DNA of 64,000 bases from Flammeovirgaceae bacterium (GTDB lineage Bacteria; Bacteroidota; Bacteroidia; Cytophagales; MED-G16). Made by a program: the position numbers and the translations under genes. Shown piece after piece: positions 3,064 through 62,910 of the stretch. How positions within the stretch are numbered: the first letter of the stretch is position 1; every line of letters starts with the position of its first letter. Below the pieces are notes generated by a model, which saw nothing but the letters and a program-made list of their open reading frames with translations, made no database searches and had not been told where the DNA came from. The DNA is taken from positions 22,015 through 86,014 of the forward strand of contig JAYNOQ010000001.1 of the NCBI GenBank assembly GCA_038113315.1, written 5' to 3'.

Positions 3064-3813
3064 TTATAATAACCTAACAGATCCAAAATCAAATTTTTCT
3101 CTATTACCATTAACTTTTATAATAATTCTACCATCATTATCTACATCAACTATTCTTCCTATAAAAACATTTTTATAATTAGCAAAGTTTTGATCTGTAT
3201 TTAGCTTATATAGATTAGCAATGTATTCAAGTTTTAATTCTTCAATATTTTCAGAAATATCTAAGTATCTTTTTTCAATTTCAGCATTCAGTAGATTTCT
3301 AATATGTTTTATATCAGATTCATTTCCACTTTCTTTTAAGATTGATGTTGCGTTTAAATCAAAAAAATTATTTTGATTAATATTTAAGCCAATTCCAATG
3401 ATAACTTGTTTAATTTTTTTATTGAAAATTTGACTTTCTATTAATATTCCAGAAATTTTTTTATCGTTTATATAGATATCATTAGGCCATTTAACCTTTA
3501 CATCTTTTAGATCAAGTTTAGTTAGTGTTTCCTTAATCGCCAGGGATATTATAATATGCAACTTAAACTGATCAGATAATGGAATATCTGGTTTTAATAA
3601 TAAAGAAAAAAGTAAATTTTTACCTCTTTCTGACTCCCAATTATTATTCCTTTGGCCCCTACCACTCAATTGATAGTCAGTCAAAACATATGAACCTTCA
3701 ACTAAATTATTTTTTCTTGATAATTGAGTCAAAAAATCATTTGTTGAAAGACATTCTGACACATAAATATTAGTTTTGTCTTTAAATGATGAGTTGGCAG
3801 ATTTTTTGCGCAT
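3064..3813 (-). CDS. birA: Biotin--[acetyl-CoA-carboxylase] ligase (no N-terminal HTH domain)
   Basis: 249 aa. GRGQRNNNWES matches the GRGRxGRxW biotin-binding loop. KWPNDIY and GIGLN motifs are present. Confidence 0.85.
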   Translation of the reverse strand: MRKKSANSSFKDKTNIYVSECLSTNDFLTQLSRKNNLVEGSYVLTDYQLSGRGQRNNNWESERGKNLLFSLLLKPDIPLSDQFKLHIIISLAIKETLTKLDLKDVKVKWPNDIYINDKKISGILIESQIFNKKIKQVIIGIGLNINQNNFFDLNATSILKESGNESDIKHIRNLLNAEIEKRYLDISENIEELKLEYIANLYKLNTDQNFANYKNVFIGRIVDVDNDGRIIIKVNGNREKFDFGSVRLL

Positions 3814-3841
3814 TGTAAATTAAATATCTTAGCAATATATA

Positions 3842-4216
3842 TTGAAAATAAAAGAAAAAATAAATTCAGATAAACTAAGCGAATTCATAGCAAATTGTAT
3901 GGATGATAAAAAAGCTGAAGATATCAGAATAATTAATTTGAAAGAAATAGATAACTCAGTTACTGATTATTTCGTTCTAGCTACTGGTAATTCAAACATA
4001 CATATAGATGCTATAGCTGACGGGATCCAAGAAAATGTTTACAAAGAATATAATGAGAGACCTTGGAAAAAAGAGGGAATAGAAAATAGAGAGTGGATAT
4101 TAATTGATTTTGTAAATGTTGTCGCACATATATTTGATGAAAATAAAAGAAATTTGTATGAACTTGAAAAATTATGGGGAGACGGAATAATTAAAAATTT
4201 TAATTCTAAAAAATGA
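3842..4216 (+). CDS. rsfS: Ribosome silencing factor RsfS (iojap family), TTG start
   Basis: 124 aa. [20 protein letters not shown] and [14 protein letters not shown] are RsfS signatures. The ORF-track start codon at 3842 is TTG. Confidence 0.85.
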
Positions 4217-6231
4217 AAAAGAAACCAAATAAAAATATTATAAATAATAATAACTTCAATAATCAGATATGGATAGTATTTCTAGTATCTATTTTCATTT
4301 ATCTTTCTTTTGGGTTCTTTTCAACTAAACCAATCACTGTAGACTATAATCGTTTCCAAAAAATGATTAAGAGCCATGATATTTCAAAGATAGTTGTTAT
4401 AAAAAATCAAGAAATTGTAGAAATATCCCTTAAAGAAGAGGCTCTTCTCAATACTACGTATAAAGATGAATTAGAATCATCAAGTTTATTAAGTAATACT
4501 TATGGACCTCATTATAGGTTAGAAGTATCTTCAATTGAATCTTTTGAAAAAAGATATGACGATTTGATAAGTTCGCTTGGTAAAGAAAACACTAATGAGA
4601 TTGAGTATCTAACTGAAAGTCGAACTGATATATATTCTTTTTTACAAACTTGGGGTTTTACAATTTTAATATTAGTTGGTTTTTGGTTTTTATTAAGAAG
4701 GATGTCAACAGGCGGTGGCCCCGGTGGACAAATATTTAATATAAGTAAATCAAAAGCATCACTTTTTGATAAAGAAAGCAAAATAAAATTAACTTTTAAA
4801 GATGTGGCTGGTCTAGAAGAAGCAAAAGAAGAAGTTAAAGAAATTGTAGAATTTTTAAAGAATCCTAAAAAATTTACAAAATTAGGTGGTAAAATTCCAA
4901 AGGGTGCACTTCTAGTAGGATCACCGGGCACAGGTAAGACATTGCTAGCGAAAGCTGTAGCAGGTGAAGCTAACGTACCTTTCTATTCACTTTCTGGATC
5001 AGATTTTGTAGAAATGTTTGTTGGAGTTGGAGCAGCAAGAGTAAGAGATTTATTCAAAAAGGCAAAAGAAAAAGCTCCATGTATAGTATTTATTGATGAA
5101 ATTGATGCAATCGGAAGAAGTAGAGGAAGAGGACAAATGCCTGGATCAAATGATGAAAGAGAAAATACTTTAAATTCATTACTTGTTGAAATGGATGGTT
5201 TTTCTACAGATTCAGGTGTCATTATATTAGCAGCAACTAACAGACCAGATGTTCTTGATTCAGCGTTATTAAGACCTGGTAGATTTGATAGACAGATTTC
5301 TATTGATAAACCTGATCTAAAAGGAAGAGAAGAAATTTTCAAAGTACACATACGACCATTAAAGCTAAATGATGATGTGAATGTAAAAAATCTTGCAGCG
5401 CAAACACCAGGTTTTGCAGGAGCTGAAATAGCTAACGTATGTAATGAATCCGCTCTCATTGCTGCAAGAAAAAACAAAGATTCAATTGAAATGTCTGATT
5501 TTCAAGATGCTATTGATAGAGTAATTGGTGGATTAGAGAAAAAAAATAAAATTATATCTCCAGAAGAAAAGAAAATAGTTGCTTATCATGAAGCTGGTCA
5601 TGCTGTTGCTGGATGGTATTTAGAACATGCTGATCCCCTTGTAAAAGTGAGTATTGTACCTAGAGGTATTGCTGCACTTGGATACGCGCAGTATCTACCA
5701 AAGGAACAGTATTTATATCAAACTGATCAATTACTAGATGAAATGTGTATGGCTCTTGGTGGGAGAGCAGCAGAAGATATAACATTTGGAAAAATTTCCA
5801 CTGGTGCTTTAAGTGATTTAGAAAGAATTACTAAAATGGCATACAGTATAGTTTCTGTTTATGGCATGAACAAAAACATTGGTAATATATCTTTTTATGA
5901 TTCTAAACAATCAGACTACAACTTCACTAAACCATATTCTGATTCAACTGCAGAAAAAATTGATTCAGAAGTTAAAAGAATTGTTGATAGTGCATATGAT
6001 AGAACTAAGAAACTACTTCTTAGCAAAAGAGAACAACTTGAGAAAATTGCTAATAAACTTTTAGAGAAAGAAATTCTATTTCAAAACGACCTTGAAAAAC
6101 TCATTGGAAAAAGACCATTTAAATCAAATCTTGAATTAAGTCAAGAAGAGAATAGTATTCAAGAAACAAAAGAAGAAATCAAAAATAAAAATGAGTTAGA
6201 TGGAAAGAATTCAAATCAAACTAAAAAATAA
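4213..6231 (+). CDS. ftsH: ATP-dependent zinc metalloprotease FtsH
   Basis: 672 aa. Two N-terminal TM segments, AAA Walker A GSPGTGKT, Walker [10 protein letters not shown], zinc motif HEAGHAV. Confidence 0.97.
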
Positions 6232-24381: not shown

Positions 24382-24854
24382 GAATACCTAAAATAAAAAT
24401 GCTTATTCTAGATGTAGATGGTACCATGACAGATAATGGCATATATATTGATGAAAATGGCATTGAATCTAAAAGATATAACGCAAAAGACGGGGTAGGT
24501 ATTTATGAGCTTATTAAAAAAGGTGTGAAAATTGGAATTATAAGTCATTCAGAGAGAGGTGATGGAATTAAATCAAGAGCATCTTATCTAGGTATTAAAA
24601 GCTGTTATGTAGGAAATGCACCAAAAGATAAAATCTTAATTGATTGGATAAATGAAGATAAAATTACATTAGAAGAAGTTGCGTTTATTGGAGATGATAT
24701 AAATGATATGAGTATAATTGATATTGTTGGTTTTAGTGCTTGCCCTAGCGATGCGTCTCAACCTGTTAAAGAAAAAGTATCATTAGTACTAAATACTAAG
24801 GGAGGATATGGTTGTGTAAGGGAATTTAGTGATTTATATTTGAGCCAAATTTAA
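24378..24854 (+). CDS. KdsC/YrbI-family HAD phosphatase (3-deoxy-ulosonate phosphate phosphatase family)
   Basis: 158 aa. HAD motif [15 protein letters not shown], motif IV GDDINDM, C-terminal GGYGCVRE. The size and pattern fit the YrbI subfamily. Confidence 0.8.
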
Positions 24855-27227: not shown

Positions 27228-27974
27228 ATGAAAAATCTAAAAAATAAAACTGCAATAATTACTGGAGGTTCAAAGGGTATAGGAAAAGGAATTGTTGAAA
27301 AATTCGCTAAAGATGGATGTAATGTTGCATTCACTTATCTGAGTAGTGAATCATCTGCAAATGAAGTTGAAGAAAAAGCAAAATCTTATGGTGTAAAAGT
27401 AATTAAATATAAATCCGATGCTTCAAGCTTTGAACAAAGTAGTGAACTGATTGATAATGTAATTAAAGATTTCGGATCATATGATATACTAATAAATAAC
27501 GCAGGAATTACAAGAGATAACCTTTTATTAAGAATGGATGAAGAGTCATGGAAAAAAGTAATTGATATTAATTTAAACTCTTGTTTTAATCTAACAAAAT
27601 GTGCAATTAGAGAATTTATGAAAAAAAAAGAAGGTGTAATTATCAATATTAGCTCTATAGTTGGCGTAAAAGGAAATGCAGGTCAATCAAATTATTCAGC
27701 TTCAAAAGCAGGAATAAATGGATTTACAAAATCAATAGCATTAGAATTAGGATCTAGAAATATTAGATGTAATGCAATTGCTCCCGGATTTATAGAAACT
27801 GACATGACAAGTCAAGGAGATGGTAAGTTATTAGAAAGCTGGATAGAGTCTATTCCTCTAAAAAGAGCTGGTAGTATAGATGACGTCGCAAACTTATGTT
27901 CATATTTAGCCTCTGATGAAGCATCTTACATAACAGGTCAAATAATAAAGGTAGATGGGGGGCTAGTTACTTAG
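27228..27974 (+). CDS. fabG: 3-oxoacyl-[acyl-carrier-protein] reductase
   Basis: 248 aa SDR. TGGSKGIG, NNAG, and the catalytic YSASKAG motif. Length and termini are typical of FabG. Confidence 0.88.
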   Translation: MKNLKNKTAIITGGSKGIGKGIVEKFAKDGCNVAFTYLSSESSANEVEEKAKSYGVKVIKYKSDASSFEQSSELIDNVIKDFGSYDILINNAGITRDNLLLRMDEESWKKVIDINLNSCFNLTKCAIREFMKKKEGVIINISSIVGVKGNAGQSNYSASKAGINGFTKSIALELGSRNIRCNAIAPGFIETDMTSQGDGKLLESWIESIPLKRAGSIDDVANLCSYLASDEASYITGQIIKVDGGLVT

Positions 27975-30495
27975 ATTCTTGCTTATTTTTCTTTGTATCT
28001 AGTTTAGTTATTTTAATTCCCTTAGACTTTTTGTCGTAGTCAGCCAAAACTAAGTCACCTTGTTTCACATTTCCAGATAAAATTTCTTCGGCAAGAACGT
28101 CTTCAATATGTTTTTGGATAGCTCTCTCCAACGGACGTGCACCATATTTTGGGTTATAGCCTTTATCAATAATGAAATCCTTTGCTTCATTAGTTAGATC
28201 AATAGAATAACCTATTTCATCTGCTTTTGAGTACAACTTTTTTAAGTTTATGTCTATAATTTGATATAAATTTTCTTTAGTTAAAGAATTAAATATTATT
28301 ATATCATCAAGTCTATTTATAAATTCAGGATTAAAAGTTCTTTGTAATGCTTTATCAATTGTTGAATTTAAATTTTCATTAATATTTTCAACTCTTGACT
28401 TAGTATCAAAACCGATACCTGCACCAAAATCTTGAACATCTCTTGCCCCAACATTTGAGGTCATTATCATAATAGTATTTCTAAAATCAACTCTATGACC
28501 TAAGCCATCAGTCAAGAATCCCTCATCAAGAATTTGTAGTAGGAGGTTAAATACGTCAGGATGAGCTTTTTCAATTTCATCAAGTAAAATAACACTGTAA
28601 GGCTTTCTTCTTACTTTCTCACTTAATTGACCTCCTTCTTCGTAACCAACATATCCAGGAGGAGCACCTACAAGTCTAGAAATAGAAAATTTCTCCATGT
28701 ATTCTGACATATCAACCCTAATTAGTGCATCATCTTTATCAAAAAGTTCATTAGCCAAAACTTTAGCTAATTCAGTTTTACCTACACCAGTTGGCCCTAA
28801 AAATATAAATGATCCAATAGGTTTCTTCGGATCCTTTAACCCAACCCTAGTTCTTTTAATAGCTCTGACTAATTTATCTATTGCATCGTCTTGACCTACA
28901 ACTTTCTTTGATAAAGTTTTAGACATAGACATCAATCTTGAACTTTCATTTTGTTCAATTCTTTCAAGTGGTATCCCAGTCACCATTGAAATAACTTCTG
29001 CAATGTTTTTTTCTTCAACTTTATGTCTCTTTTTCTTTGATTCCTCTATCCACTTCTTTTTTTGAACATCTAACTCTGCAAGTAATTTTTTTTCGGTATC
29101 TCTTAATTGAGCCGCTTCCTCGTATTTTTGATTTTGAACAACTTGATTTTTCTGACTTTTAATCTCTTCAATTTTATTTTCAATATCAATGATTACCTCT
29201 GGAACATCAAGATTATGCATATGAACTCTTGATCCTGCCTCATCCATTAGATCTATAGCCTTATCAGGTAAAAACCTATCGCTAATATATCTATCTGAAA
29301 GTTTAACACAAGCCTCAATAGCTTCTTTAGTATAAATAACATTATGATGACTTTCATACTTATCTTTTATGTTATCTAAAATATTTTCTGTTTCCTCAGG
29401 TGTTGTAGGATCAATAATAACGTTTTGAAATCTCCTTGCTAAAGCTCCGTCTTTTTCAACATATTGTCTATACTCATCTAAAGTTGTTGCACCTATACAC
29501 TGTAATTCACCCCTAGCAAGGGCCGGTTTGAACATATTAGATGCATCTAAGGAACCAGAAGCTCCTCCAGCTCCAACAATGGTATGAAGTTCATCAATAA
29601 ATAAAATGATGTTATCAGACTTTTCAATTTCAGTCATTACCGCTTTCATTCTTTCTTCAAACTGCCCACGATATTTTGTGCCAGCAACTAAAGAAGCTAA
29701 ATCTAGGGTTACTACCCTCTTGTTATGAAGTATTCTAGATACTTTCTTTTGTGTAATTCTTAATGCTAATGCTTCAGCAATAGCTGTTTTTCCTACTCCA
29801 GGCTCACCAATTAAAATTGGATTATTTTTCTTTCTTCTAGTAAGTATTTGAGCAACTCTTTCAATCTCTTTTTCTCTACCAATGACTGAATCTAATTTAT
29901 TTTGCTCAGCAAGTTTAGTTAAGTCTTTACCAAAATTATCAAGTATTGGAGTCTTAGACTTTTCCTTAGTTTTAGGAGTTTTAGAAGAAGAGCTGCCTTT
30001 TAAACTAGACATATCATCTTCCTCCATTGGCTCAGAAGATGTACTCGCTTGTGGATTACTTGTTTGATACTCAAGTAATTCTTTGACTACATCATATGTT
30101 ACATCAAACTTATCAAGAATTTGAGTTGCAATATTATCTTCATCTCTTAGAATAGATAATAACAAATGTTCAGTCCCAATTAATTTACTTTTAAATATTT
30201 TAGCCTCTAGATAAGTTATTTTAAGGACTTTCTCAGTTTGTCTAGTAAGAGGAATATTAGTTACATTCTTTAAATTTGAAGATGTAGTATTTTTAGTGTT
30301 ATGTTCAACAGATGCTCTTAGGTCTTCTAAACTAATTCCTAATTTTTTAAGTAATCCAATCGCTACACCTTCTCCTTCTCTTATTACCCCTAACAATAAG
30401 TGTTCAGTACCAATGTAGTCATGTCCTAGCCTGAGGGCTTCTTCTCTACTTAATGATATTACTTCTTTAACTCTATTTGAAAACTTTGCTTCCAT
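27967..30495 (-). CDS. clpC: ATP-dependent Clp protease ATP-binding subunit, ClpC type
   Basis: 842 aa. Duplicated Clp_N repeats, two AAA modules ([18 protein letters not shown]), a UVR-like linker ([16 protein letters not shown]). No long ClpB middle domain. Confidence 0.9.
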
Positions 30496-30538
30496 AACTT
30501 TATAACGTAAGGATAACTCATTTTAATAAAAAAAACTA

Positions 30539-31144
30539 TTAATTTTTTTCTTTAAAATTTCTTATAAAATAACCTGATTCAGGCCCTTTTAAGAAAATTA
30601 AGTCTATCACACTATAATCATAATCAAATTTCTTGCCAAGAAAGAAATTATTTCTTTTTTGATCGACATCTTCTTTTTTTGAAAATGAATTATAATGACT
30701 ATATACCTCTATTACGTCTTCTAAGTTGTTTTTATTCTGAAATTTTTCAATTTTATTTTCAAAATCTAAAAATTGACAAAACAATGTCAATAAGTCATAA
30801 TTTAGATCAATTAGGAAATTATGTCTTAGTTTAAGAATCTTGATTATTTCGTCAACATAATAAATATAATATGGGAATCTACCATATGAAGATTGTATAG
30901 ATTGAAAATGACCATTAATCCAATTTTTATTATGGTCTATTTTTAATTCTTTTATTTTTATATCTTTTGAGCTGAAGATCAAAGGAACCTCCATTTCAAA
31001 GGCATTAGAACGATTTACAATTTTAGTTTTATTTATATTTAAAAAATGAGAATAATCTGAATTAAAGTCAACAAGAATTTTGTTGTCCTTTAATTTCTTG
31101 AAAAAATTTACAGTTGGCAAATATTGTGGTTGAACTAAAATCAT
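30539..31144 (-). CDS. Hypothetical protein, possibly WbqC-like family
   Basis: 201 aa. The N-terminus MILVQPQYLPTVNFF resembles the QPxYxPxxxYF start of WbqC-like proteins. The assignment is by eye only. Confidence 0.4.
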   Translation of the reverse strand: MILVQPQYLPTVNFFKKLKDNKILVDFNSDYSHFLNINKTKIVNRSNAFEMEVPLIFSSKDIKIKELKIDHNKNWINGHFQSIQSSYGRFPYYIYYVDEIIKILKLRHNFLIDLNYDLLTLFCQFLDFENKIEKFQNKNNLEDVIEVYSHYNSFSKKEDVDQKRNNFFLGKKFDYDYSVIDLIFLKGPESGYFIRNFKEKN

Positions 31145-41130: not shown

Positions 41131-41171
41131 AGTCAAAATGTCATAAAGTATCTTTGGCAAACTTTTTGCAA
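41131..41171 (+). promoter_or_regulatory. Conserved 41-bp element upstream of grpE-dnaJ with a sigma-54-like -24/-12 core
   Basis: AGTCA-N3-TGTCA-N11-TGGCA-N7-TGCAA. The core TGGCAA-ACTTT-TTGCA (41155..41170) fits TGGCAC-N5-TTGCW. The same spacing architecture recurs at 45823..45863 upstream of dnaK. Confidence 0.45.
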
Positions 41172-41182
41172 ATATCTAAAGT

Positions 41183-41671
41183 ATGAATAAAAGAAAATCA
41201 AAAAAAACTACTGACAGTAAGAAATCAGATAAATCAAAAGGCCTCAATATTGAGTTACAAGAAACAAAAGATAAATATTTAAGGCTATATTCAGAATTTG
41301 AAAACTACCGAAGAAGAACATCAAAAGAAAAAATTGAGATGATAGATTCTGCCAATAAGGAACTTCTTTCAGATATACTTCCAGTTGTTGATGATTTTGA
41401 GAGAGCTTCTAAAGCTATTAAAAAAGAGGATGAGTCATATCTTGAGGGATTCAATTTAATTCATCAAAAATTAATTAGTACACTTGAAAAATATAATGTC
41501 AAGAAGATGGAAATTAAAAAAGGAGATGATTTTGATTCTGAGTACCATGAGGCAATTACAAGCACTCCATCAGAAAAAAAATATAAAGGAAAAATAATTG
41601 ATGTTGTTGAGAATGGATATCATATAGGAGATAACATTCTGCGTTTTGCAAAAGTTGTAACTGGATCATAA
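41183..41671 (+). CDS. grpE: Nucleotide exchange factor GrpE
   Basis: 162 aa. YLRLYSEFENYRRRTSKE and LPVVDDFERA are GrpE signatures. It is followed directly by dnaJ. Confidence 0.93.
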   Translation: MNKRKSKKTTDSKKSDKSKGLNIELQETKDKYLRLYSEFENYRRRTSKEKIEMIDSANKELLSDILPVVDDFERASKAIKKEDESYLEGFNLIHQKLISTLEKYNVKKMEIKKGDDFDSEYHEAITSTPSEKKYKGKIIDVVENGYHIGDNILRFAKVVTGS

Positions 41672-42786
41672 TGTCTAAAAGAGATTTCTACGAAATTTTA
41701 GGTGTAAATAAATCTTCTTCTCAAGAAGAAATAAAAAAAGCTTATAGAAAAGTTGCTATTAAATTTCACCCTGATAAAAACCCTGACGATAAAGCTGCTG
41801 AAGAAAAGTTTAAAGAGGCTGCCGAAGCATATGAGGTTTTAAGTAACCCTGAAAAAAAGCAGAAATATGACAGATTTGGTCACGATGGACTTAGAGGAGG
41901 TCCTGGTGGGTTTTCAGGGGGAGGAATGAATGTTGAAGATATTTTTGAACAATTTGGAGATATTTTTGGAGGAGGTAGTCCTTTTGATAGTTTTTTTGGA
42001 GGGGGTAGTTCAAGACAAAGAAATAAAGGAACTAATTTAAGAATTAAGTTAAAATTAACAATTCAAGAAATAGCTACAGGAGTAGAAAAGAAGATTAAAG
42101 TCAAAAGGCTTGTTACTGCTCCAGGGGTTACATTTAAAACATGTAGCGTTTGTAATGGAACTGGAAAAGTAAGTAAAGTTGTAAATACTATGCTTGGACA
42201 AATGGTTTCCTCTACTACATGTTACCAGTGTAATGGAAATGGAAAAACTATAGATAATAAACCACCAGGAGTAGATAGTACGGGACTTCAATTTAAAGAA
42301 GAAATTTTAAAAATAAATATACCCTCAGGAGTTGGAGATGGGATGCAATTATCAATGACTGGAAAAGGAAATGAATCTCCAGGTGGAGGTATATCAGGTG
42401 ACTTATTAATATTAATTGAAGAAAAAGAAGATGATAATTTTAAGAGAGATGGTAATAATGTTGTTTATGATTTATTTATCAATTTTGTAGATGCTGCAAT
42501 AGGTAATGAGCTTGAGGTACCAACTCTCAATGGAAAAGTAAAAGTTAAGATACCACCTGGAACACAAAGTGGTAAAATTTTTAGGTTGAGAGGAAAAGGA
42601 ATTAAGGATTTGAATACTTCAATTACAGGAGACCAGCTAATTCATGTCAATATTTGGACTCCAAAAAAATTAACATCAGAAGAAGAAAAGTTATTAATTC
42701 AATTAAAAAAATCTAAAAACTTTAAACCAAATCCTGGAAAAACAGAAAAAGGATTTTTCGATAGAGTAAGAGACTTCATGAGCTAA
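41671..42786 (+). CDS. dnaJ: Molecular chaperone DnaJ
   Basis: 371 aa. J domain with HPDKN, a G/F-rich linker, and a CxxCxGxG zinc-finger region (CSVCNGTG, CYQCNGNG). Confidence 0.96.
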   Translation: MSKRDFYEILGVNKSSSQEEIKKAYRKVAIKFHPDKNPDDKAAEEKFKEAAEAYEVLSNPEKKQKYDRFGHDGLRGGPGGFSGGGMNVEDIFEQFGDIFGGGSPFDSFFGGGSSRQRNKGTNLRIKLKLTIQEIATGVEKKIKVKRLVTAPGVTFKTCSVCNGTGKVSKVVNTMLGQMVSSTTCYQCNGNGKTIDNKPPGVDSTGLQFKEEILKINIPSGVGDGMQLSMTGKGNESPGGGISGDLLILIEEKEDDNFKRDGNNVVYDLFINFVDAAIGNELEVPTLNGKVKVKIPPGTQSGKIFRLRGKGIKDLNTSITGDQLIHVNIWTPKKLTSEEEKLLIQLKKSKNFKPNPGKTEKGFFDRVRDFMS

Positions 42787-42821: not shown

Positions 42822-43988
42822 TTGAATATCTCAAACATCCAAAAAGAATTAACCTGGCTTACAATAACAACACTTCTTGTGTTTACAGTATCATTAGTTT
42901 ATTTCTCTAATATGACCATTAAAGAAATAAAAGAAAGGGAAATTAAAACAATTGAAAGATATTCAAAATTTATAGAGCTTGTTGCAAATTCTGAAGTTGA
43001 ATCTGCAAATTATTTTGTAGATGACATTCTAATTGAAAATAACTCGATACCAATAATTGTCACTGACAGTGATGGTAATATCATTGAATATAAAAATATT
43101 TCTGAACCATCTGAATCTAATCTTTTTGACCAATTAGGGTCTATGAAAAAAAGATATGAGCCAATTAAAATAAATATTTTAGATAAAGAAAGGAATGAAG
43201 TTGGATATCAGCTTATTTATTACAATAATTCTAAAATTCTTGATTTGCTAATTATTGCACCTTATTTTATTATATCACTAACTTTTTTAATCTTACTATC
43301 AATCTATTTAATATCATTTTATTCAAATAAATCTGAGAGAGATAGATTATGGACTGGCCTTGCAAAAGAAACTGCACACCAGCTGGGAACACCCCTTTCT
43401 TCTTTAATTGGATGGAATGAGTATTTGAAATCAAAAAAAAAGGTTGATAAAGGATTTATAAGTAGTGAAATAGATAAAGATCTTAATCGACTTAAAATAA
43501 TAACTGATAGGTTTTCTACAATAGGTTCTAAGCCTTCCCTAATTGATACAGACATTAAAATAACCATTATTGAATCGATCGATTATCTTAAAAGAAGAGT
43601 TTCACCAAATGTCAAAACAAAACTTAATTTAGAAACAGTAAATTATAATTTCAATAAACAATTATTTGGGTGGGTAATTGAAAATTTATATAAAAATTCT
43701 ATTGACGCTATCGGTAAAAATGGTACTGTAGAAATTAAATTATATGAGGATAAAGATTCAGTAATTATTGATTTTATTGATGATGGTATTGGAATAAATA
43801 AATCAGATTTTTCAAAAATATTTAAACCTGGCTTTACAACAAAGGAAAGAGGATGGGGTTTAGGTTTAACTTTAGTAAATAGAATAATATCAGATTATCA
43901 CAAGGGGAGAATATATGTTAAAAACTCTATTAAAAATGTTGAAACTACAATAAGAATAGAATTAAAAAAATTTGATAAAAAAAGTTAA
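42822..43988 (+). CDS. Sensor histidine kinase (orphan, TTG start)
   Basis: 388 aa. Two TM segments flank a ~120-aa extracytoplasmic region. H-box ETAHQLGTPLSSL. HATPase N box (NLYKNSIDA) and G boxes (DDGIGI, GWGLGL). No response regulator adjacent. Confidence 0.8.
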   Translation: MNISNIQKELTWLTITTLLVFTVSLVYFSNMTIKEIKEREIKTIERYSKFIELVANSEVESANYFVDDILIENNSIPIIVTDSDGNIIEYKNISEPSESNLFDQLGSMKKRYEPIKINILDKERNEVGYQLIYYNNSKILDLLIIAPYFIISLTFLILLSIYLISFYSNKSERDRLWTGLAKETAHQLGTPLSSLIGWNEYLKSKKKVDKGFISSEIDKDLNRLKIITDRFSTIGSKPSLIDTDIKITIIESIDYLKRRVSPNVKTKLNLETVNYNFNKQLFGWVIENLYKNSIDAIGKNGTVEIKLYEDKDSVIIDFIDDGIGINKSDFSKIFKPGFTTKERGWGLGLTLVNRIISDYHKGRIYVKNSIKNVETTIRIELKKFDKKS

Positions 43989-45822: not shown

Positions 45823-45863
45823 TGACATTCTGTCATATATGATTATTGGCATAAATCTTGTCA
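45823..45863 (+). promoter_or_regulatory. Conserved 41-bp element upstream of dnaK (second copy of the grpE-type element)
   Basis: TGACA-N3-TGTCA-N11-TGGCA-N7-TGTCA. The core TGGCAT-AAATC-TTGTC (45847..45862) is sigma-54-like, with GT instead of GC at -12. 25 of 41 positions are identical to 41131..41171, including most G/C positions. Confidence 0.45.
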
Positions 45864-45895
45864 TATAAATAAGTAATATTTAAAATTTAAAAATT

Positions 45896-47830
45896 ATGAG
45901 TAAAATAATTGGAATAGATTTAGGAACCACAAATTCATGTGTATCCGTAATGGAAGGTAATGAGCCAGTAGTTATACCAAATAGCGAAGGAAAGAGAACT
46001 ACACCTTCTATAGTTGCATTTCTAGATGAAGGAAAAGGAGAAAGAAAAGTTGGTGATCCTGCTAAAAGACAGGCTATAACCAATCCAAAAAACACAATTA
46101 ATTCTGTAAAAAGATTTATGGGGAAAAAATTCTCTGATATCAATGAAGAAAAAAGAAACTTAGCTTATGAAGTTGAAAAAGGAACTAATGATACAGTAAG
46201 AGTAAAAATTGGAACAAGAAAATATACTCCACAAGAAATATCAGCAATGATATTACAAAAAATGAAATCTACTGCAGAGGATTATCTTGGATCTGAGGTA
46301 AAAGAAGCGGTAATTACTGTACCTGCTTATTTTAATGATTCAGAGAGACAGGCAACCAAAGAAGCAGGGACAATTGCTGGTTTAGATGTCAAAAGAATTA
46401 TTAATGAACCAACTGCTGCTGCGCTAGCTTATGGTTTGGATAAAAAAGATAAGGACTTAAAAATTGCTGTTTATGATTTAGGAGGAGGAACATTTGATAT
46501 TTCTATTCTTGAATTAGGTGATGGAGTTTTTGAAGTAAAGTCTACTAACGGAGATGTTCATTTAGGTGGAGATGACTTTGATAGTGTACTTATTGATTGG
46601 TTAGCTGACGAATTTAATAAGGACGAAGGCATTGATTTAAGAAAAGATCCTATGGCATTACAGAGATTAAAAGAAGGTGCTGAAAAAGCTAAAATTGAAT
46701 TATCTAGCTCATCATCAACTGAAATTAATCTTCCATATATAATGCCAGTTGATGGAGTTCCTAAACATTTAGTTAAAACACTATCTAGAGCTAAATTTGA
46801 ACAATTGACTCAAAAATTAGTTGAAAGAACTTTAGAGCCATGTTCCAAAGCATTAAAAGACGCTAAAATGGGAGTTGGTGATATTGATGAGATAATATTA
46901 GTAGGAGGTTCAACAAGAATTCCAAAAATACAGGAAGAAGTAGAAAAATTCTTTAAAAAGAAGCCATCTAAAGGTGTAAATCCTGATGAGGTTGTAGCAG
47001 TTGGTGCCGCAATACAAGGTGGTGTATTAACAGGTGAGGTAAAAGATGTACTTCTTTTAGATGTAACACCTCTTTCACTAGGTATTGAAACTTTAAATGG
47101 AGTATTTACTAAATTAATTGAGTCTAATACTACAATACCTACTAAGAAATCTGAAACATTTTCTACAGCTGCTGATAATCAACCTGCTGTTGAAATTCAT
47201 GTTTTACAAGGAGAAAGACCAATGGCAAAAGATAACAAGACGATTGGAAGATTTCACTTAGATGGAATTCCGCCCGCACCTAGAGGTGTACCACAGATAG
47301 AGGTTACATTCGATATAGATGCTAATGGTATTTTAAATGTTTCAGCTAAAGATAAGGGTACAGGAAAAGAACAAAACATTAGAATTGAAGCTTCTTCAGG
47401 ACTAACTGAGGAAGAAATAAATAAAATGAAAGATGAAGCTAAAGCCAATGAGGATACAGATAAGAAAGAAAGAGAGAAGGTTGATAAGCTAAATACTGCA
47501 GATGGATTAATTTTTCAAACTGAAAAACAATTAAAGGAGTTTGGTGAGAAACTTTCTGAACCTAACAAAAAAGCAATTAAAGATTCTCTTGAAAAATTAA
47601 AGGCTATTCACAAAGAACAAAAAATTGATGAAATTGATGGAGCGGTTGAGGCTTTAAATAAATCATGGGAAGCAGCAAGCCAGGAAATTTATAAGGCGAC
47701 TCAAGAACAACAGGCAGCAAATGGTGGTGCTGGAGCTGATCCATCAGCTAAATCAGATGGACCAAAAGGTGATGGTGGAGATGATATATCCGACGTCGAT
47801 TTTGAAGAAGTAAAAGACGAAAAGAAGTAA
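45896..47830 (+). CDS. dnaK: Molecular chaperone DnaK
   Basis: 644 aa. [28 protein letters not shown], and the C-terminal EEV-like acidic tail. Confidence 0.98.
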
Positions 47831-47859
47831 TTTTTCATTTTGTTTAAAATTTAATTAAA

Positions 47860-47892
47860 GGTTATACAAAAAATTGTATAACCTTTTTTTTT
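47860..47892 (+). terminator. Intrinsic terminator downstream of dnaK
   Basis: GGTTATACA-aaaaat-TGTATAACC hairpin (47860..47883) followed by a 9-nt T-run. Confidence 0.75.
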
Positions 47893-47947: not shown

Positions 47948-48523
47948 ATGAAAAAGTTTTTGATAGTCATATTAACAATTATTTCAATAAATGTTAGTGC
48001 ACAAAATGACAACCTACCCTTTAAAGAACTTGGGGCCTATTCTGAGGAGTTTAGTCCTAATAATATAGTTGCTAGAATGATTGAAGGCCTGGGTTATAGA
48101 TTCTACTGGGCTACAGAATCATTAACAGATAAAGACCTTAAATATAAACCAAGTGAAGATAGTAGATCTAGCTTACAAACCTTAGAACACATATATGGTT
48201 TAAGTGTATTTATTTTATATACTTTAGAAGGAAAAGAATATGATTTTTCACAAGATGAAATGACTTTTACAGAGTTAAGAAATGGTACATTAAAAAATTT
48301 AAAGATAGTTTATGATATGCTCAATGAAAATGCAGATATATCACAAATGCAAGTTAGACTAAACCTAAATGGTCAAAGTCTCGCTTTCCCGTTTTGGAAT
48401 GCTATTAATGGTCCTATTTCTGATTCATTATGGCATACTGGTCAAATAGTTTCATTTAGAAGAGCAAGTGGAAATCCAATTAATCCTAAGGTTAACGTCT
48501 TTATAGGAAAAACAATGGAATAA
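47948..48523 (+). CDS. Secreted hypothetical protein, possibly DinB-superfamily-like
   Basis: 191 aa. Signal peptide (NVSAQ). Spaced His residues (LEHIYG, LWHTGQIVSFRR) recall DinB/YfiT four-helix-bundle proteins. Weak, by-eye assignment. Confidence 0.4.
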   Translation: MKKFLIVILTIISINVSAQNDNLPFKELGAYSEEFSPNNIVARMIEGLGYRFYWATESLTDKDLKYKPSEDSRSSLQTLEHIYGLSVFILYTLEGKEYDFSQDEMTFTELRNGTLKNLKIVYDMLNENADISQMQVRLNLNGQSLAFPFWNAINGPISDSLWHTGQIVSFRRASGNPINPKVNVFIGKTME

Positions 48524-48524
48524 T

Positions 48525-49046
48525 ATGAAGGCATCTCTAGATAAGGTAGTTAAAATTGCTGAAATCATAGGATCATTAGGAATTGTAATAAGCTTAATTT
48601 TTGTTTCAATTCAATATCAAAATAATTCATTAGCGCTTCAAACTTCAACAGCAAATTCAGTAAATGCAAATATTGCAGATTGGTACACTGCTTTTTTTGA
48701 AAACGCTGAGGCCTCAGAAGCATTTATGAAATTTGTTTCTGCCCCAGAATCTGTTACTCCATCAGAAAGATTTAGAGCTATAATGAGACTTCATTCTCTC
48801 AATCTTCATTTGCAAAACGCGCTCTATCTTGAAGGAAAAGGGGTTTTAGATGAAAATTTAAGAAAAACAATATCTATGGCTGTTTATAGCGGTTTAGGCT
48901 CGCCAGGATTCTATATTTTTTGGGAACAAAGAAAAGATATGTATACTGAGGAGTGGAGAAATTTTGTAGAGGATTTAATCCAATCTAAAAAAGATAGGAA
49001 TGAAAATCTTGAAAAATTATTCAATGATAATGATAGTATAAACTAA
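48525..49046 (+). CDS. Hypothetical membrane-anchored protein
   Basis: 173 aa. Single N-terminal TM (IAEIIGSLGIVISLIFVSI). It starts 2 nt after the preceding gene. No family recognised. Confidence 0.4.
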   Translation: MKASLDKVVKIAEIIGSLGIVISLIFVSIQYQNNSLALQTSTANSVNANIADWYTAFFENAEASEAFMKFVSAPESVTPSERFRAIMRLHSLNLHLQNALYLEGKGVLDENLRKTISMAVYSGLGSPGFYIFWEQRKDMYTEEWRNFVEDLIQSKKDRNENLEKLFNDNDSIN

Positions 49047-50557: not shown

Positions 50558-51928
50558 ATGCAAAAGTTACAACTTAGACAAAATCAATCCCAAAAGCTTT
50601 CTCCTCAACAAATTCAGTTTATAAAACTATTACAATTATCCAATTCTAATATTGAGGCAGAAATTAAAAAAGAAATTGAAGAAAATCCTGCGCTTGAGGA
50701 AAATGAAAAAAACGAAAATATAGATACAGTTAATACAGAAAATTACAATTACTATCAAAAATCAAATAACGAAAATTCAAATTTCAATAGAGAAGAAAAT
50801 ATATCAAATACAGAATCATTTAGAGAAAATCTAATTTCTCAGCTTAATTACCAGAAGTTAGATAAAGGCGAGAATATAATTGCAAATCAAATTATAGGAA
50901 CATTAGATAATGATGGATACTTAAGAAGAGATATTGAGTCAATAATTGATGATATTGCATTTGCTGAAAACATTGAATTTAAAAATTCAGACATAGAAAA
51001 AGTACTTTTAAAAATTCAAAAACTTGAACCAGCTGGTATAGCTGCAAGAAATTTAGAAGAATGTTTAATTCTTCAAATTGATTCGATTGAAGAACCTACT
51101 CAAAATCAATTACTAGCAAAAAAAATTATTCTTGAGAATTTTAAAGAATTTACTAATAAAAAGTTTGATGTCATTTATCAAAAGTATGATCATCCAAAAA
51201 ATATAATAAATAATGCTTTTGATTATATCAAAACCCTAAACCCTAAACCATCTGGAGGACTTGAAGATTCTAATCTTACCGAATTTTTAATTCCTGATTT
51301 TATTGTAAAAAAAGATAATAATGAATTTATAGTTGAATTAGCATCTGGAAATAAACCATTAAATATTAATAAAAATTACATTTCTATTTATGATGAATTA
51401 AAAAATAAAAAAAATAAAGACAATGAATCTAAAGAATCATTTGATTTTATTAAGAGTAAATTAGAAAAAGCACAATGGTTTGTTGAAGCTTTAAATCAAA
51501 GAAACAACACATTACTTAAAACAATGAACACAATCGTTAAAATTCAGAAAAGATTTTTTAATGATGGAGATGAAAATGATTTGAAACCAATGATATTAAA
51601 AGATATTGCTGAAATTATTAAAATGGATATTTCTACAGTTAGTAGAATCGTAAAAAGTAAAAATGCTCAAACTGATTATGGAATTTTTCCTCTTCGATAT
51701 TTTTTCTCTGAATCAACAATTAAAAAGGGAGATGATTTAGTAAGTAGTAAAATTGTAAAAAATTATTTATCAGATCTAATAGAAAATGAAGATAAATCAT
51801 CACCATATTCAGATGATCAACTAGAGAAAATACTAAAAAAAGAGGGCTATGATGTTGCAAGAAGGACTGTAGCTAAATATAGAGAACAGTTAAATATCCC
51901 TGTAGCGAGATTGAGAAAAGAATATTAA
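50558..51928 (+). CDS. rpoN: RNA polymerase sigma-54 factor
   Basis: 456 aa. Region I (LQLRQNQSQKLSPQQIQFIKLLQL), an acidic/Asn-rich linker, a C-terminal HTH and the RpoN box (ARRTVAKYREQLNIP). Confidence 0.93.
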   Translation: MQKLQLRQNQSQKLSPQQIQFIKLLQLSNSNIEAEIKKEIEENPALEENEKNENIDTVNTENYNYYQKSNNENSNFNREENISNTESFRENLISQLNYQKLDKGENIIANQIIGTLDNDGYLRRDIESIIDDIAFAENIEFKNSDIEKVLLKIQKLEPAGIAARNLEECLILQIDSIEEPTQNQLLAKKIILENFKEFTNKKFDVIYQKYDHPKNIINNAFDYIKTLNPKPSGGLEDSNLTEFLIPDFIVKKDNNEFIVELASGNKPLNINKNYISIYDELKNKKNKDNESKESFDFIKSKLEKAQWFVEALNQRNNTLLKTMNTIVKIQKRFFNDGDENDLKPMILKDIAEIIKMDISTVSRIVKSKNAQTDYGIFPLRYFFSESTIKKGDDLVSSKIVKNYLSDLIENEDKSSPYSDDQLEKILKKEGYDVARRTVAKYREQLNIPVARLRKEY

Positions 51929-61173: not shown

Positions 61174-62910
61174 ATGAGTATTATTACCCAATTGCCAAAG
61201 TCTGTAGCTAATCAAATTGCAGCTGGAGAAGTAATTCAAAGACCGTCTTCAATTATTAAAGAATTACTTGAAAATAGCATTGACGCAAATTCGAAAAATA
61301 TAAAAGTGCTTATTAAAGATGCTGGTAAACAATCTGTAACAGTTGTTGATGACGGAGAAGGGATGACAAAAGAAGATGCAGTAAAATGTTTTGGTAGACA
61401 CTCTACATCAAAATTATCTAAAGCAGAAGACCTATTTAAAATTAAAACTATGGGTTTTAGAGGTGAAGCGCTGGCTTCTATAGCAGCTGTATCTGAAATC
61501 ACATTAAAAACAAAAATCGAATCAGCAAAAATTGGTCAACAGGTTATTATAAAAGATTCTAAGATAATTGAACAAAAAGAAATTAGCTTTCAAAAAGGAA
61601 CAAGTATCAATGCCAAAAACTTATTTTTTAATATTCCTGCTAGGAGAAATTTTTTAAAATCTAATAATCTAGAAATAAAATATATAATCGATGAGTTTAT
61701 TCGTTGCGCAATTGCTAACCCAGAAATTTCTTTTTCTCTAATAAATGAAGATGCCGAAATATATAATTTAAAAAGTACTAATCTAAAGAAAAGAATAATT
61801 TCAATTTTTAAGAAAAATTATGAAAAAAACATGATTGAATGCGAGGAAAAATTTGGGGCTATAACAATTAATGGATTTATCGGAAAGCCAGAAAATACAA
61901 AAAAAACAAGAGGTGAGCAATTTATTTATGTTAATAATAGATTTATTAGGAGTGCCTATATAAATCATGCAATAATTAATAGTTATGAAGGAATGATAGA
62001 AGAGAAAAATTTTCCTTTTTACGTATTATTTATATCTATAAATACTGATCTAGTAGATGTTAATATTCATCCCACAAAAACAGAAATAAAATTTGAAGAC
62101 GAGAAACTTATTTATAATCTGGTAAAATCCTCAGTTAAAAAATCTTTGGAAAAATTTAATGTATCTCCATCTATTAATTTTGACGCGGATATAAACTTCA
62201 AAGAAAATATTAGTTTTCAAATAAGCTCTAGCAAGAATGAAAATATCAAGGAGTCCTACTCAAATAAAAAGAAAGATTGGGAAAAAATCTTTGAGAATGT
62301 AAAAATTGAGAACTCAGATAAAATGCTATTTGAAAATACATCTTCAATTGATAATGAAAATAAACCTGTTCAGTTTCTAGAAAATTTTATATTTAAACAA
62401 GTTGGTGAGAAACTTTTAATATTTAATCACAAATACTGTCAGCAAAGAATTCTTTTTGAAAAATTTACAAATTCAAATATTAAGACCTATACTAATACTC
62501 AACAAAGTCTATTCCCACAATACATTGAGTTTAATAAGTCAGATTTTAGAATTATTCAAGAAATAATTGATGATATAAAATCTATTGGATTTAATATTGA
62601 TTTTTTTGGAGAGAACTCAGTAGTTATCAATGGAATACCTAATGGCTTAGATGACATCAATGAAAAAGAAATAATAGAAGGTTTTATAGAAGAAATAAAG
62701 AATAATAACTCTGATAAATTAGAAAAAAGAGACCTAATAATAAAGTTCTTTTCTAAAAAAGCAAAAATTATAAATAATAAAAGCTTAAGTATTACAGAAA
62801 TGAATCTAATTATTGACAGGTTATTTGCATGTAAAAATTCAAAGTATTCTCCTGATGGGAAACAAAATTATATTGAATTAGGTATTGATAAAGTAGAAAA
62901 TTTATTTTGA
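61174..62910 (+). CDS. mutL: DNA mismatch repair protein MutL
   Basis: 578 aa. GHKL ATPase motifs (IAAGEVIQRPSSIIKELLENSIDA, DDGEGM, GFRGEALASIA) and a C-terminal dimerisation domain. Confidence 0.93.
   Translation: MSIITQLPKSVANQIAAGEVIQRPSSIIKELLENSIDANSKNIKVLIKDAGKQSVTVVDDGEGMTKEDAVKCFGRHSTSKLSKAEDLFKIKTMGFRGEALASIAAVSEITLKTKIESAKIGQQVIIKDSKIIEQKEISFQKGTSINAKNLFFNIPARRNFLKSNNLEIKYIIDEFIRCAIANPEISFSLINEDAEIYNLKSTNLKKRIISIFKKNYEKNMIECEEKFGAITINGFIGKPENTKKTRGEQFIYVNNRFIRSAYINHAIINSYEGMIEEKNFPFYVLFISINTDLVDVNIHPTKTEIKFEDEKLIYNLVKSSVKKSLEKFNVSPSINFDADINFKENISFQISSSKNENIKESYSNKKKDWEKIFENVKIENSDKMLFENTSSIDNENKPVQFLENFIFKQVGEKLLIFNHKYCQQRILFEKFTNSNIKTYTNTQQSLFPQYIEFNKSDFRIIQEIIDDIKSIGFNIDFFGENSVVINGIPNGLDDINEKEIIEGFIEEIKNNNSDKLEKRDLIIKFFSKKAKIINNKSLSITEMNLIIDRLFACKNSKYSPDGKQNYIELGIDKVENLF

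What the first reader, a model, noticed from the sequence alone, without database searches (positions are those of the whole stretch)
41131..41171. Sigma-54-like promoter core within a 41-bp element upstream of grpE-dnaJ
The element begins 5 nt after the obgE stop. The intergenic sequence reads AGTCA-aaa-TGTCA-taaagtatctt-TGGCA-aactttt-TGCAA. The core TGGCAA-ACTTT-TTGCA (41155..41170) matches the sigma-54 consensus TGGCAC-N5-TTGCW in both conserved GG and GC dinucleotides and in spacing. The same architecture, with identical 3/11/7 spacings, recurs upstream of dnaK (45823..45863). I did not see TGGCA-N6-TTG in any other intergenic region of the window, and rpoN itself lies at 50558..51928. I am not aware that heat-shock control in Bacteroidota has been assigned to RpoH or HrcA/CIRCE-type systems, so a shared element on both chaperone operons is worth testing. 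Caveats: a sigma-54 start here would fall about 2 nt before the grpE ATG (41183), giving an essentially leaderless mRNA. The element could instead be an operator for a repressor.
Basis: partly seen in the sequence, partly recalled or inferred. Interest (0 to 1): 0.6.

Follow-up and report, generated by a model that had tools for sequence, protein, structure and literature searches.

The report
Sigma-54 heat-shock promoters with upstream dyad
The element is real and is a conserved sigma-54-type promoter driving the chaperone genes grpE-dnaJ and dnaK, a control system already described for this bacterial phylum; the one possibly new detail is a fixed-position paired site just upstream that probably binds its regulator.

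Summary
TGTCA-N11-TGGCA-N7-TG occurs exactly twice in 64 kb (0.00 expected), directly upstream of grpE-dnaJ and of dnaK, and rpoN is at 50558-51928.

The sigma-54 reading is supported. TGGCA-N6-TTG lies upstream of dnaK in 73 of 80 Bacteroidota genomes. It also lies upstream of grpE in metagenomic relatives down to about 40% GrpE identity.

This is not new. Published 5'-end mapping in Flavobacterium psychrophilum places sigma-54 -24/-12 promoters before groES-groEL, lon, dnaK, grpE-dnaJ, htpG and clpB. A 2025 survey found the same enrichment across Bacteroidota. This is therefore a new member of a known kind.

New observations here:
- The two upstream pentamers form a dyad, TGNCA-N3-TGNCA, about 60-fold enriched. 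It sits only 11-13 or 21-23 bp upstream of TGGCA, one helical turn apart. It was absent from the five non-chaperone sigma-54 promoters of F. psychrophilum examined.
- A third copy precedes rsfS-ftsH (3749-3809). A dyad-less candidate precedes a clpC-like gene (30638-30624, minus strand).
- The grpE mRNA is predicted to be leaderless.

The dyad most likely binds the cognate activator or a dedicated regulator. No activator gene lies in the window.

The parts
41131..41143 (+). Upstream dyad of the grpE promoter: AGTCA-aaa-TGTCA, 11 bp before TGGCA
   Evidence: G-CA...AATG-CA is invariant in 11 diverged relatives. The spacer length is fixed at 11-12 bp although its sequence varies.
41155..41170 (+). 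Sigma-54 core of the grpE-dnaJ promoter: TGGCAA-ACTTT-TTGCA (GG 41156-57, GC 41168-69)
   Evidence: Conserved upstream of grpE in the L013 relative and in the metagenome relatives L085-L164.
41181..41183 (+). Predicted transcription start of grpE (0-2 nt leader, so a leaderless mRNA)
   Evidence: Inferred. In F. psychrophilum the mapped start is 13-15 nt after the G of the -12 TTG. The distance from that G to the A of the ATG is exactly 15 nt in every close relative, despite sequence drift in between.
41183..42786 (+). grpE (41183-41671) and dnaJ (41671-42786), the transcribed operon
   Evidence: NCBIfam hits.
45823..45835 (+). Upstream dyad of the dnaK promoter: TGACA-ttc-TGTCA, the only exact TGNCA-N3-TGNCA in the window
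   Evidence: CTGACATTCTGTCA is conserved in 17 family-level relatives with a fixed N11 spacer.
45847..45861 (+). Sigma-54 core of the dnaK promoter: TGGCAT-AAATC-TTGT (-12 is GT rather than GC)
   Evidence: Across 72 Bacteroidota dnaK promoters the base after TTG is A in 42, T in 23 and C in 7.
45896..47830 (+). dnaK. Predicted start 45873-45875, leader about 21-23 nt. Hairpin terminator at 47857-47886.
   Evidence: The start position is inferred.
3749..3809 (+). Third composite element: aGACA-ttc-TGACA, N33, TGGCAG-ATTTT-TTGCG, upstream of rsfS-ftsH
   Evidence: Conserved in 4 relatives with 65-85% RsfS identity (L165-L168) and absent in Penaeicola (L169). It overlaps the 5' end of the divergent birA-like ORF 3064-3813, so coding constraint contributes to the conservation.
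3842..6231 (+). rsfS (3842-4216) and ftsH (4213-6231)
   Evidence: Pfam RsfS; Peptidase_M41 plus AAA plus FtsH_ext. ftsH is co-expressed with the sigma-54 chaperone cluster B254 in F. psychrophilum.
30624..30638 (-). Candidate sigma-54 core TGGCAAGAAATTTGA, 143 nt upstream of a clpC-like AAA+ gene (27967-30495, minus strand), with no clear dyad
   Evidence: It is invariant in relatives whose surrounding WbqC-like protein is only 51-87% identical.
50558..51928 (+). rpoN (sigma-54)
   Evidence: TIGR02395, full length, 424 bits against a cut-off of 277.

Best explanation
The 41-bp element is a sigma-54-dependent promoter for grpE-dnaJ. It belongs to a protein-quality-control regulon that in this window also includes dnaK, probably rsfS-ftsH, and possibly a clpC-like gene.

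Proposed mechanism:
1. RNA polymerase carrying sigma-54 (rpoN, 50558-51928) binds TGGCA (-24) and TTGC (-12) as a closed complex.
2. An AAA+ enhancer-binding activator, encoded outside the window, remodels that complex using ATP.
3. Transcription starts 13-15 nt after the -12 G, that is at 41181-41183. The grpE mRNA is therefore leaderless.
4. The two upstream pentamers are not part of the sigma-54 site. Together they form a dyad, TGNCA-N3-TGNCA, placed two or three helical turns upstream of the -24 GG on the same DNA face. The dyad marks the chaperone subset of sigma-54 promoters. I take it to be the binding site of the regulator that confers stress control, most likely the DNA-binding domain of the cognate activator acting from an unusually close position.

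What is shown: motif, spacing, conservation, helical phasing, and presence of rpoN. Start sites are shown only in a related class, by publication.

What is inferred: start sites in this organism, dependence on an activator, which protein binds the dyad, and heat as the signal.
For: - Exact GG-N10-GC promoter at grpE and at rsfS.
- The composite pattern occurs 2 times against 0.00 expected, both times directly before Hsp70-system operons.
- Four of the five TGGCA-N6-TTG sites in the window face proteostasis genes.
- Phylum-wide conservation upstream of dnaK, 73 of 80 loci, and upstream of grpE.
- Published start-site maps place sigma-54 promoters before the same genes in F. psychrophilum (PMC9723704). 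A survey based on position-specific scoring matrices found enrichment in Bacteroidota (PMC12316311).
- Dyad frequency: 63 of 84 dnaK promoters and 26 of 43 grpE promoters carry it within 70 nt. The background rate is 0.18 per kb.
- Dyad position: spacers are only 11-13 or 21-23 bp. TGTCA and TGACA are about 6-fold enriched and phased.
- Specificity of the composite pattern: in about 1.1 Mb of dnaK loci it hits dnaK in 49 of 56 cases, plus a thioredoxin-like gene. In the grpE loci plus the window it hits only grpE, dnaK and rsfS.
- The dyad is visible in the F. psychrophilum groS and clpB promoters. It is absent from five non-chaperone sigma-54 promoters there.
Against: - No activator gene (GAFTGA motif) lies in the window or in any fetched flank, so its presence in this genome is unverified.
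- There are no RNA data for this organism.
- dnaK has GT rather than GC at -12.
- A dyad centred near -45 is far closer than classical enhancers at -80 to -150.
- Some Bacteroidetes activators are reported to lack DNA-binding domains (PMC3372290). In that case another protein would bind the dyad.
- A TAtcTTTG match to the Bacteroidota housekeeping -7 box overlaps TGGCA at 41149-41156, although it is not conserved in relatives.
- No terminator separates obgE from grpE or atpC from dnaK, so read-through also contributes to expression.
Confidence: 0.85

Rival explanations
1. The sigma-54 promoter is real, but the dyad is the operator of a separate dimeric regulator rather than the activator's own enhancer. 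That regulator could be a heat-labile repressor or an adaptor. It would gate an activator that lacks a DNA-binding domain and acts from solution.
For: - Bacteroidetes are reported to have activators without enhancer-binding domains (PMC3372290).
- The dyad abuts the polymerase footprint at a fixed helical phase, which is unlike looping enhancers.
- The clpC-like candidate promoter has no dyad.
- clpB falls in a different co-expression cluster from dnaK and grpE in F. psychrophilum.
Against: - No candidate repressor gene is linked to these loci.
- A site at -45 does not overlap -24/-12, so simple occlusion of polymerase is unlikely.
- No data show what binds the dyad.
Confidence: 0.3
2. The element is not a sigma-54 promoter. 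It is an operator or housekeeping-sigma promoter (TAnnTTTG -7 box, or TTGGCA-N17-TAAAGT) that only resembles -24/-12.
For: - TAtcTTTG at 41149-41156 matches the Bacteroidota -7 consensus (consensus from PMC9723704).
- The sigma-70 pattern scan lists TTGGCA-17-TAAAGT and TTGTCA-17-TAAAAT.
Against: - The TAnnTTTG match is lost in most relatives, while TGGCA-N6-TTG is kept.
- Sigma-70-type matches are no more frequent than in shuffles, 33 against 38.7.
- A -10 box at 41177-41182 would start transcription inside grpE.
- The orthologous promoters in F. psychrophilum were classed as sigma-54 with probability about 1, with matching start sites.
Confidence: 0.05
3. It is a chance similarity in AT-rich DNA, or a transcribed RNA element such as a thermometer or leader.
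For: - The window is 29% G+C.
- A score matrix built from the dnaK sites alone is not specific. It scores 16.7 inside a kdsC-like coding region, and shuffles reach 21.
Against: - 0.00 copies of the composite pattern are expected by chance.
- Conservation is deep.
- There is no Rfam match.
- Folding z-scores are +0.47 and -0.05.
- The grpE element lies upstream of the predicted start, so it would not be transcribed from this promoter.
Confidence: 0.01

Closest known systems
Sigma-54 (motif SM4) promoters of the proteostasis cluster B254/B415 in Flavobacterium psychrophilum (Guerin et al. 2021, PMC9723704)
   Same: Same genes (dnaK, grpE-dnaJ; ftsH is co-expressed). Same TGGCA-N6-TTG core. The start lies 13-15 nt after the -12 G. 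A TGTCA or TGTCC pentamer lies 12 bp upstream of the core in the groS and clpB promoters.
   Different: Different order: a streamlined marine relative of Cytophagales, about 29% G+C, with a 1.3-Mb contig. The grpE promoter is squeezed into a 56-nt gap and gives a leaderless mRNA. I found no mention of an upstream dyad in the text or supplements of that paper ('inverted repeat' and 'palindrom' gave 0 hits).
Predicted sigma-54 regulation of the GroEL, GroES, GrpE, DnaJ, DnaK and IbpA orthologue groups in Bacteroidota and Planctomycetota (Carrera-Reyna et al. 2025, PMC12316311, citing Sabree et al. 2009 on Blattabacterium)
   Same: Same conclusion at phylum scale, including the class Cytophagia.
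   Different: That work is based on score matrices only, with no start sites and no upstream element. The Sabree paper could not be read here.
Classical enhancer-dependent sigma-54 promoters (NtrC-glnA, NifA TGT-N10-ACA, PspF-pspA; from general knowledge)
   Same: A -24/-12 core plus dyad-symmetric upstream sites that are helically phased.
   Different: Classical enhancers lie about 80-150 bp upstream and act by DNA looping. Here the nearest dyad ends 11-13 or 21-23 bp from TGGCA. The half-sites are palindromic pentamers 8 bp apart.
CIRCE/HrcA, RpoH and CtsR heat-shock controls
   Same: Same target genes. The first half of the grpE dyad, AGTCAAA, resembles a CtsR heptad.
   Different: There is no CIRCE match even with 3 mismatches. 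No RpoH-like promoter lies near the chaperone genes. The CtsR repeat period is 10 bp rather than 8, and GTCAAA is not conserved in relatives.

Membership tests
Sigma-54-dependent promoter | -24 GG and -12 GC elements with exact GG-N10-GC spacing (TGGCAC-N5-TTGCW) | tested here: met
   Met exactly for grpE (41155-41170) and rsfS (3795-3809). dnaK has GG-N10-GT, as do most Bacteroidota dnaK promoters.
Sigma-54-dependent promoter | rpoN encoded in the genome | tested here: met
   50558-51928, TIGR02395, 424 bits, full length.
Sigma-54-dependent promoter | Conservation of the core upstream of orthologous genes | tested here: met
   dnaK in 73 of 80 loci. grpE across the metagenome relatives L085-L164. 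rsfS in 4 of 5 loci.
Sigma-54-dependent promoter | Transcription start about 12-15 nt downstream of the -12 element | not testable with these tools
   No RNA data exist for this organism. The feature is met in F. psychrophilum orthologues by published 5'-end RNA-seq. The fixed 15-nt distance from the -12 G to the ATG in relatives is consistent with it.
Sigma-54-dependent promoter | An AAA+ enhancer-binding activator (PF00158, GAFTGA motif) present | tested here: inconclusive
   None in the 64-kb window or in any fetched flank. The remaining ~1.27 Mb of the 1.33-Mb contig carrying this grpE could not be searched.
Sigma-54-dependent promoter | Loss of transcription in an rpoN mutant | not testable with these tools
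   Requires an experiment.
Enhancer (upstream activating sequence) of an enhancer-binding activator | Dyad-symmetric site or sites, helically phased with the promoter | tested here: met
   TGNCA-N3-TGNCA. Spacers are 11-13 or 21-23 bp only. Further pentamer clusters occur at roughly 10-bp steps.
Enhancer (upstream activating sequence) of an enhancer-binding activator | Location about 80-150 bp upstream, acting by DNA looping | tested here: not met
   The nearest dyad is centred about 20 or 30 bp from the -24 GG, near -45 or -55.
Enhancer (upstream activating sequence) of an enhancer-binding activator | Bound by the cognate activator | not testable with these tools
   The activator has not been identified.
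CIRCE/HrcA operator | TTAGCACTC-N9-GAGTGCTAA inverted repeat upstream of chaperone genes | tested here: not met
   0 matches with up to 3 mismatches.
Structured RNA leader or thermometer | Rfam match, or folding stability beyond shuffled sequence | tested here: not met
   No Rfam hit at E<=1. Folding z-scores are +0.47, -0.05 and -0.78.

The most novel reading that the evidence does not exclude
The TGNCA-N3-TGNCA dyad is a previously undescribed, phylum-wide cis-element. It would define the heat-shock branch of the Bacteroidota sigma-54 regulon. It would be bound by a dedicated regulator, either the activator itself or a separate stress-sensing repressor, that must sit exactly two or three helical turns upstream of the -24 element. 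That would be a short-range, non-looping mode of sigma-54 control. Using the dyad as bait would identify the still unknown heat or protein-misfolding sensor of the phylum.
Probability: 0.4. Interest if true: 0.55.

Novelty: new member of a known kind. Interest (0 to 1): 0.3.

Why it matters
Bacteroidota lack the RpoH and HrcA/CIRCE paradigms and instead use sigma-54 for chaperone genes, which is already known. This window shows that the arrangement survives in a highly streamlined marine genome. There the whole promoter, including its regulatory dyad, fits into 56 nt and yields a leaderless grpE mRNA.

The practical value is the dyad. It gives a sharply defined, testable handle (half-sites, fixed spacer length, helical phase) for finding the protein that senses stress in this phylum. 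It also helps separate chaperone-type from other sigma-54 promoters in genome annotation.

Tried and rejected
- **Score matrix from 72 dnaK promoters, scanned over the window.** Not specific. It missed grpE, scored a kdsC-like coding site (24437) at 16.7, and shuffles reached 21. The 24437 site encodes the HAD-phosphatase motif DNGIYIDE and is taken as chance.
- **CIRCE and RpoH-like TTGAA-N13-17-CCCAT.** Nothing near the chaperone genes.
- **Rfam and RNA folding.** Nothing.
- **Sigma-70 consensus scan.** No enrichment.
- **Search for an activator by the GAFTGA motif in the window and in the fetched flanks.** None found. The complete genome could not be reached with the tools.
- **Literature searches for a described heat-shock activator or upstream dyad in Bacteroidota.** None found in the held library. 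Sabree et al. 2009 is not held.
- **CtsR-like reading of AGTCAAA.** Rejected on repeat period and lack of conservation.
- **rsfS upstream region in the more distant Penaeicola (L169).** No motif.
- **TGACAGGTTATTTGC at 62814, before a rhomboid gene.** Lacks the GG dinucleotide and was not pursued.

Full report
**Observation.**
Upstream of grpE it reads AGTCA-aaa-TGTCA-N11-TGGCA-N7-TGCAA at 41131-41171. This sits between the obgE stop (41126) and the grpE ATG (41183). Upstream of dnaK it reads TGACA-ttc-TGTCA-N11-TGGCA-N7-TGTCA at 45823-45863.

NCBIfam confirms ObgE, GrpE, DnaJ, AtpD, DnaK, AsnS and RpoN. It also identifies an AtoS/ZraS-like histidine kinase just after dnaJ. The exact pattern TGTCA-N11-TGGCA-N7-TG occurs twice in 64 kb, against 0.00 expected.

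**Organism.**
The window is 27-36% G+C and carries a SusC/SusD pair. Its DnaK is 93% identical to that of a Flammeovirgaceae metagenome-assembled genome (L013) and 74-82% identical to other Cytophagales. The identical GrpE protein is encoded on marine metagenome contigs, including one of 1.34 Mb. This is a streamlined marine member of Bacteroidota related to Cytophagales.

**Conservation of the core.**
- dnaK: in 80 Bacteroidota dnaK loci, 73 have TGGCA-N6-TTG within 250 nt of the start, typically about 60 nt upstream. The taxa span Cytophagales, Chitinophagales, Sphingobacteriales, Bacteroidales, Flavobacteriales and Saprospirales, plus one Chlorobiota genome. Of the seven without it, one has only 43 nt of upstream sequence and most others carry variants (TGGTAC in three Dyadobacter loci and one Cytophagales MAG).
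- The base after TTG in dnaK promoters is A (42), T (23) or C (7). The dnaK promoters of the phylum are therefore typically GG-N10-G(A/T).
- grpE: in the 80 metagenomic grpE loci, most relatives with enough upstream sequence, from 99% to about 40% GrpE identity, keep TGGCA(A/G)-N5-TTG preceded by the pentamer pair (a 43%-identity group has a TGGAAT variant). An alignment of 11 diverged relatives shows invariant G-CA, AATG-CA, TGGCA, TTG and ATG, with variable sequence between them.

**Comparison with what is known.**
This turned out to be published.
- Guerin et al. 2021 (PMC9723704) mapped 5' ends in Flavobacterium psychrophilum. They found a -24/-12 sigma-54 motif (SM4) upstream of groES-groEL, lon, dnaK, grpE-dnaJ, htpG, skp, clpB and a rhomboid protease. 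ftsH and secA are co-expressed with these genes.
- Carrera-Reyna et al. 2025 (PMC12316311) found predicted sigma-54 promoters enriched at the GroEL, GroES, GrpE, DnaJ, DnaK and IbpA gene families in Bacteroidota, including Cytophagia, and in Planctomycetota. They cite Sabree et al. 2009 for grpE and groES.
- The promoter sequences in the supplementary start-site table put the start 13-15 nt after the G of the -12 TTG.

Applied to this window, that rule predicts starts at 41181-41183 (grpE), 45873-45875 (dnaK) and 3821-3823 (rsfS).

In every close relative the -12 G lies exactly 15 nt before the A of the grpE ATG, although the intervening bases vary. This argues for a genuinely leaderless grpE mRNA. 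Leaderless mRNAs make up 5.5% of mRNAs in F. psychrophilum.

**The upstream pentamers.**
These are not part of a sigma-54 site. TGNCA is its own reverse complement, so the pair forms a dyad, TGNCA-N3-TGNCA.
- In the 130 nt upstream of the dnaK cores, TGTCA occurs in 50 of 70 loci against 8.5 in shuffles. TGACA occurs in 43 against 7.9. Start positions cluster at -16/-17, -24 to -28 and -35/-36 relative to the T of TGGCA, with further clusters at roughly 10-bp steps.
- With a relaxed dyad pattern, 63 of 84 non-redundant dnaK promoters and 26 of 43 grpE promoters carry it within 70 nt. The background is 0.18 per kb, about 0.013 expected per 70-nt region.
- The spacer to TGGCA is 11-13 bp (62 cases) or 21-23 bp (22 cases). 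It is never 14-20 bp.
- The dyad centre therefore lies about 2 or 3 helical turns from the -24 GG, on the same face of the DNA.
- In 17 family-level relatives the dnaK spacer keeps a length of 11-12 bp while its sequence changes freely.
- The composite pattern is highly specific. In about 1.1 Mb of dnaK loci, 49 of 56 hits are dnaK promoters, and most of the rest precede a thioredoxin-like gene in Bacteroidales. In the grpE loci plus the window it hits only grpE, dnaK and rsfS.
- In the F. psychrophilum table, groS (ATGTCA-N12-TGGCA) and clpB (ACATTTTGTCC-N12-TGGAA) show the dyad; lon carries only a single TGCCA pentamer 15 nt upstream of its core. Five non-chaperone sigma-54 promoters (remF and four others) show no TGNCA between -50 and -28. 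This sample is small, but it points to a regulon-specific site rather than a general extension of the promoter.

**More members in the window.**
TGGCA-N6-TTG occurs five times, against 1.38 expected.
- Besides grpE and dnaK, one copy (3795-3809, TGGCAG-ATTTT-TTGCG) lies 33 nt before rsfS-ftsH. It has aGACA-ttc-TGACA 33 bp further upstream, which is the usual 11 bp plus two helical turns. It is conserved in four relatives and absent in the more distant Penaeicola. It overlaps the start of a divergent birA-like gene, so coding constraint also contributes to its conservation.
- Another copy (30638-30624, minus strand) lies inside the 3' end of a wbqC-like gene, 143 nt before a clpC-like AAA+ gene. 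The core and the whole stretch down to the clp start codon are nearly invariant, even where the WbqC-like protein is only 51% identical. It has no dyad.
- The fifth copy (24437) is in a kdsC-like coding region and is taken as chance.

**Mechanism and rivals.**
I commit to a sigma-54 promoter. The shown parts are the motif, its spacing, the presence of rpoN and the conservation. Start sites are shown only in a related class.

An AAA+ activator is required by the established biochemistry of sigma-54. None is encoded in the window or in any fetched flank.

The dyad is most simply the activator's binding site. Its position near -45 or -55 is much closer than classical enhancers, and some Bacteroidetes activators are reported to lack DNA-binding domains (PMC3372290). 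A separate regulator, for instance a heat-labile repressor gating an activator that works from solution, is therefore a serious rival for that sub-element.

Other alternatives are weak:
- There is no CIRCE match and no RpoH-like promoter near the chaperone genes.
- There is no Rfam family and no stable RNA fold.
- Sigma-70-type matches are at chance level.
- A TAtcTTTG match to the housekeeping -7 box overlaps TGGCA at 41149-41156, but it is not conserved.

No terminators separate obgE from grpE or atpC from dnaK, so read-through from upstream operons probably adds basal expression.

**Verdict.**
The finding is real and correctly interpreted, but the phenomenon is already described for the phylum. 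It is a new member of a known kind, and interest is low to moderate.

The part worth carrying forward is the phased dyad. I did not find it described in the library available to me.

Noticed in passing
window 3749-3809 (+): A third composite element, aGACA-ttc-TGACA-N33-TGGCAGATTTTTTGC, lies upstream of rsfS-ftsH. It overlaps the first codons of a divergent birA-like gene. It is conserved in 4 relatives and absent in Penaeicola.
   Followed up: yes
window 30496-30638 (-): TGGCAAGAAATTTGA lies inside the 3' end of a wbqC-like gene, 143 nt before a clpC-like AAA+ gene. The whole ~140 nt down to the clp start codon is almost invariant, even in a relative whose WbqC-like protein is 51% identical. 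This suggests a promoter plus a conserved leader. There is no Rfam hit and the fold z-score is -1.5.
   Followed up: partly
window 42822-43988 (+): A membrane histidine kinase sits 36-126 nt after dnaJ. It has two transmembrane segments, a periplasmic loop of about 110 aa, and is AtoS/ZraS-like. The arrangement is syntenic across the family (obgE-grpE-dnaJ-kinase-atpDC-dnaK). No response regulator lies nearby. It may be co-transcribed with grpE-dnaJ and may be a partner of an NtrC-type activator.
   Followed up: partly
window 41149-41156 (+): TAtcTTTG is a perfect match to the Bacteroidota housekeeping -7 box (TAnnTTTG) and overlaps the TGGCA of the grpE promoter. It is not conserved in most relatives.
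   Followed up: yes
window 24437-24451 (+): TGGCATATATATTGA is the second-best hit of the dnaK-derived score matrix. It lies in the HAD motif (DNGIYIDE) of a kdsC-like gene and is judged to be chance.
   Followed up: yes
window 62814-62828 (+), before rhomboid gene 62907-63689: TGACAGGTTATTTGC is a near-miss to the sigma-54 core (GA instead of GG). It lies in the 3' end of mutL, about 80 nt before a rhomboid protease gene. A rhomboid gene is sigma-54-driven in F. psychrophilum.
   Followed up: no
window 47948-49046 (+): Two ORFs downstream of the dnaK terminator (191 and 173 aa) have no NCBIfam or Pfam match.
   Followed up: no
L037, L047, L049, L060 (Bacteroidales dnaK loci, minus strand): A 119-aa thioredoxin-like gene near dnaK carries TGACAAAGTTACA, then about 45 nt, then TGGCA-N6-TTG. 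This makes it a further likely member of the regulon in Bacteroidales.
   Followed up: no
F. psychrophilum THC0290_0729-0733 (PMC9723704): A sigma-54-dependent regulator gene is in an operon with lptE, a few genes from secG and groES-groEL. It is a candidate for the chaperone-specific activator.
   Followed up: no
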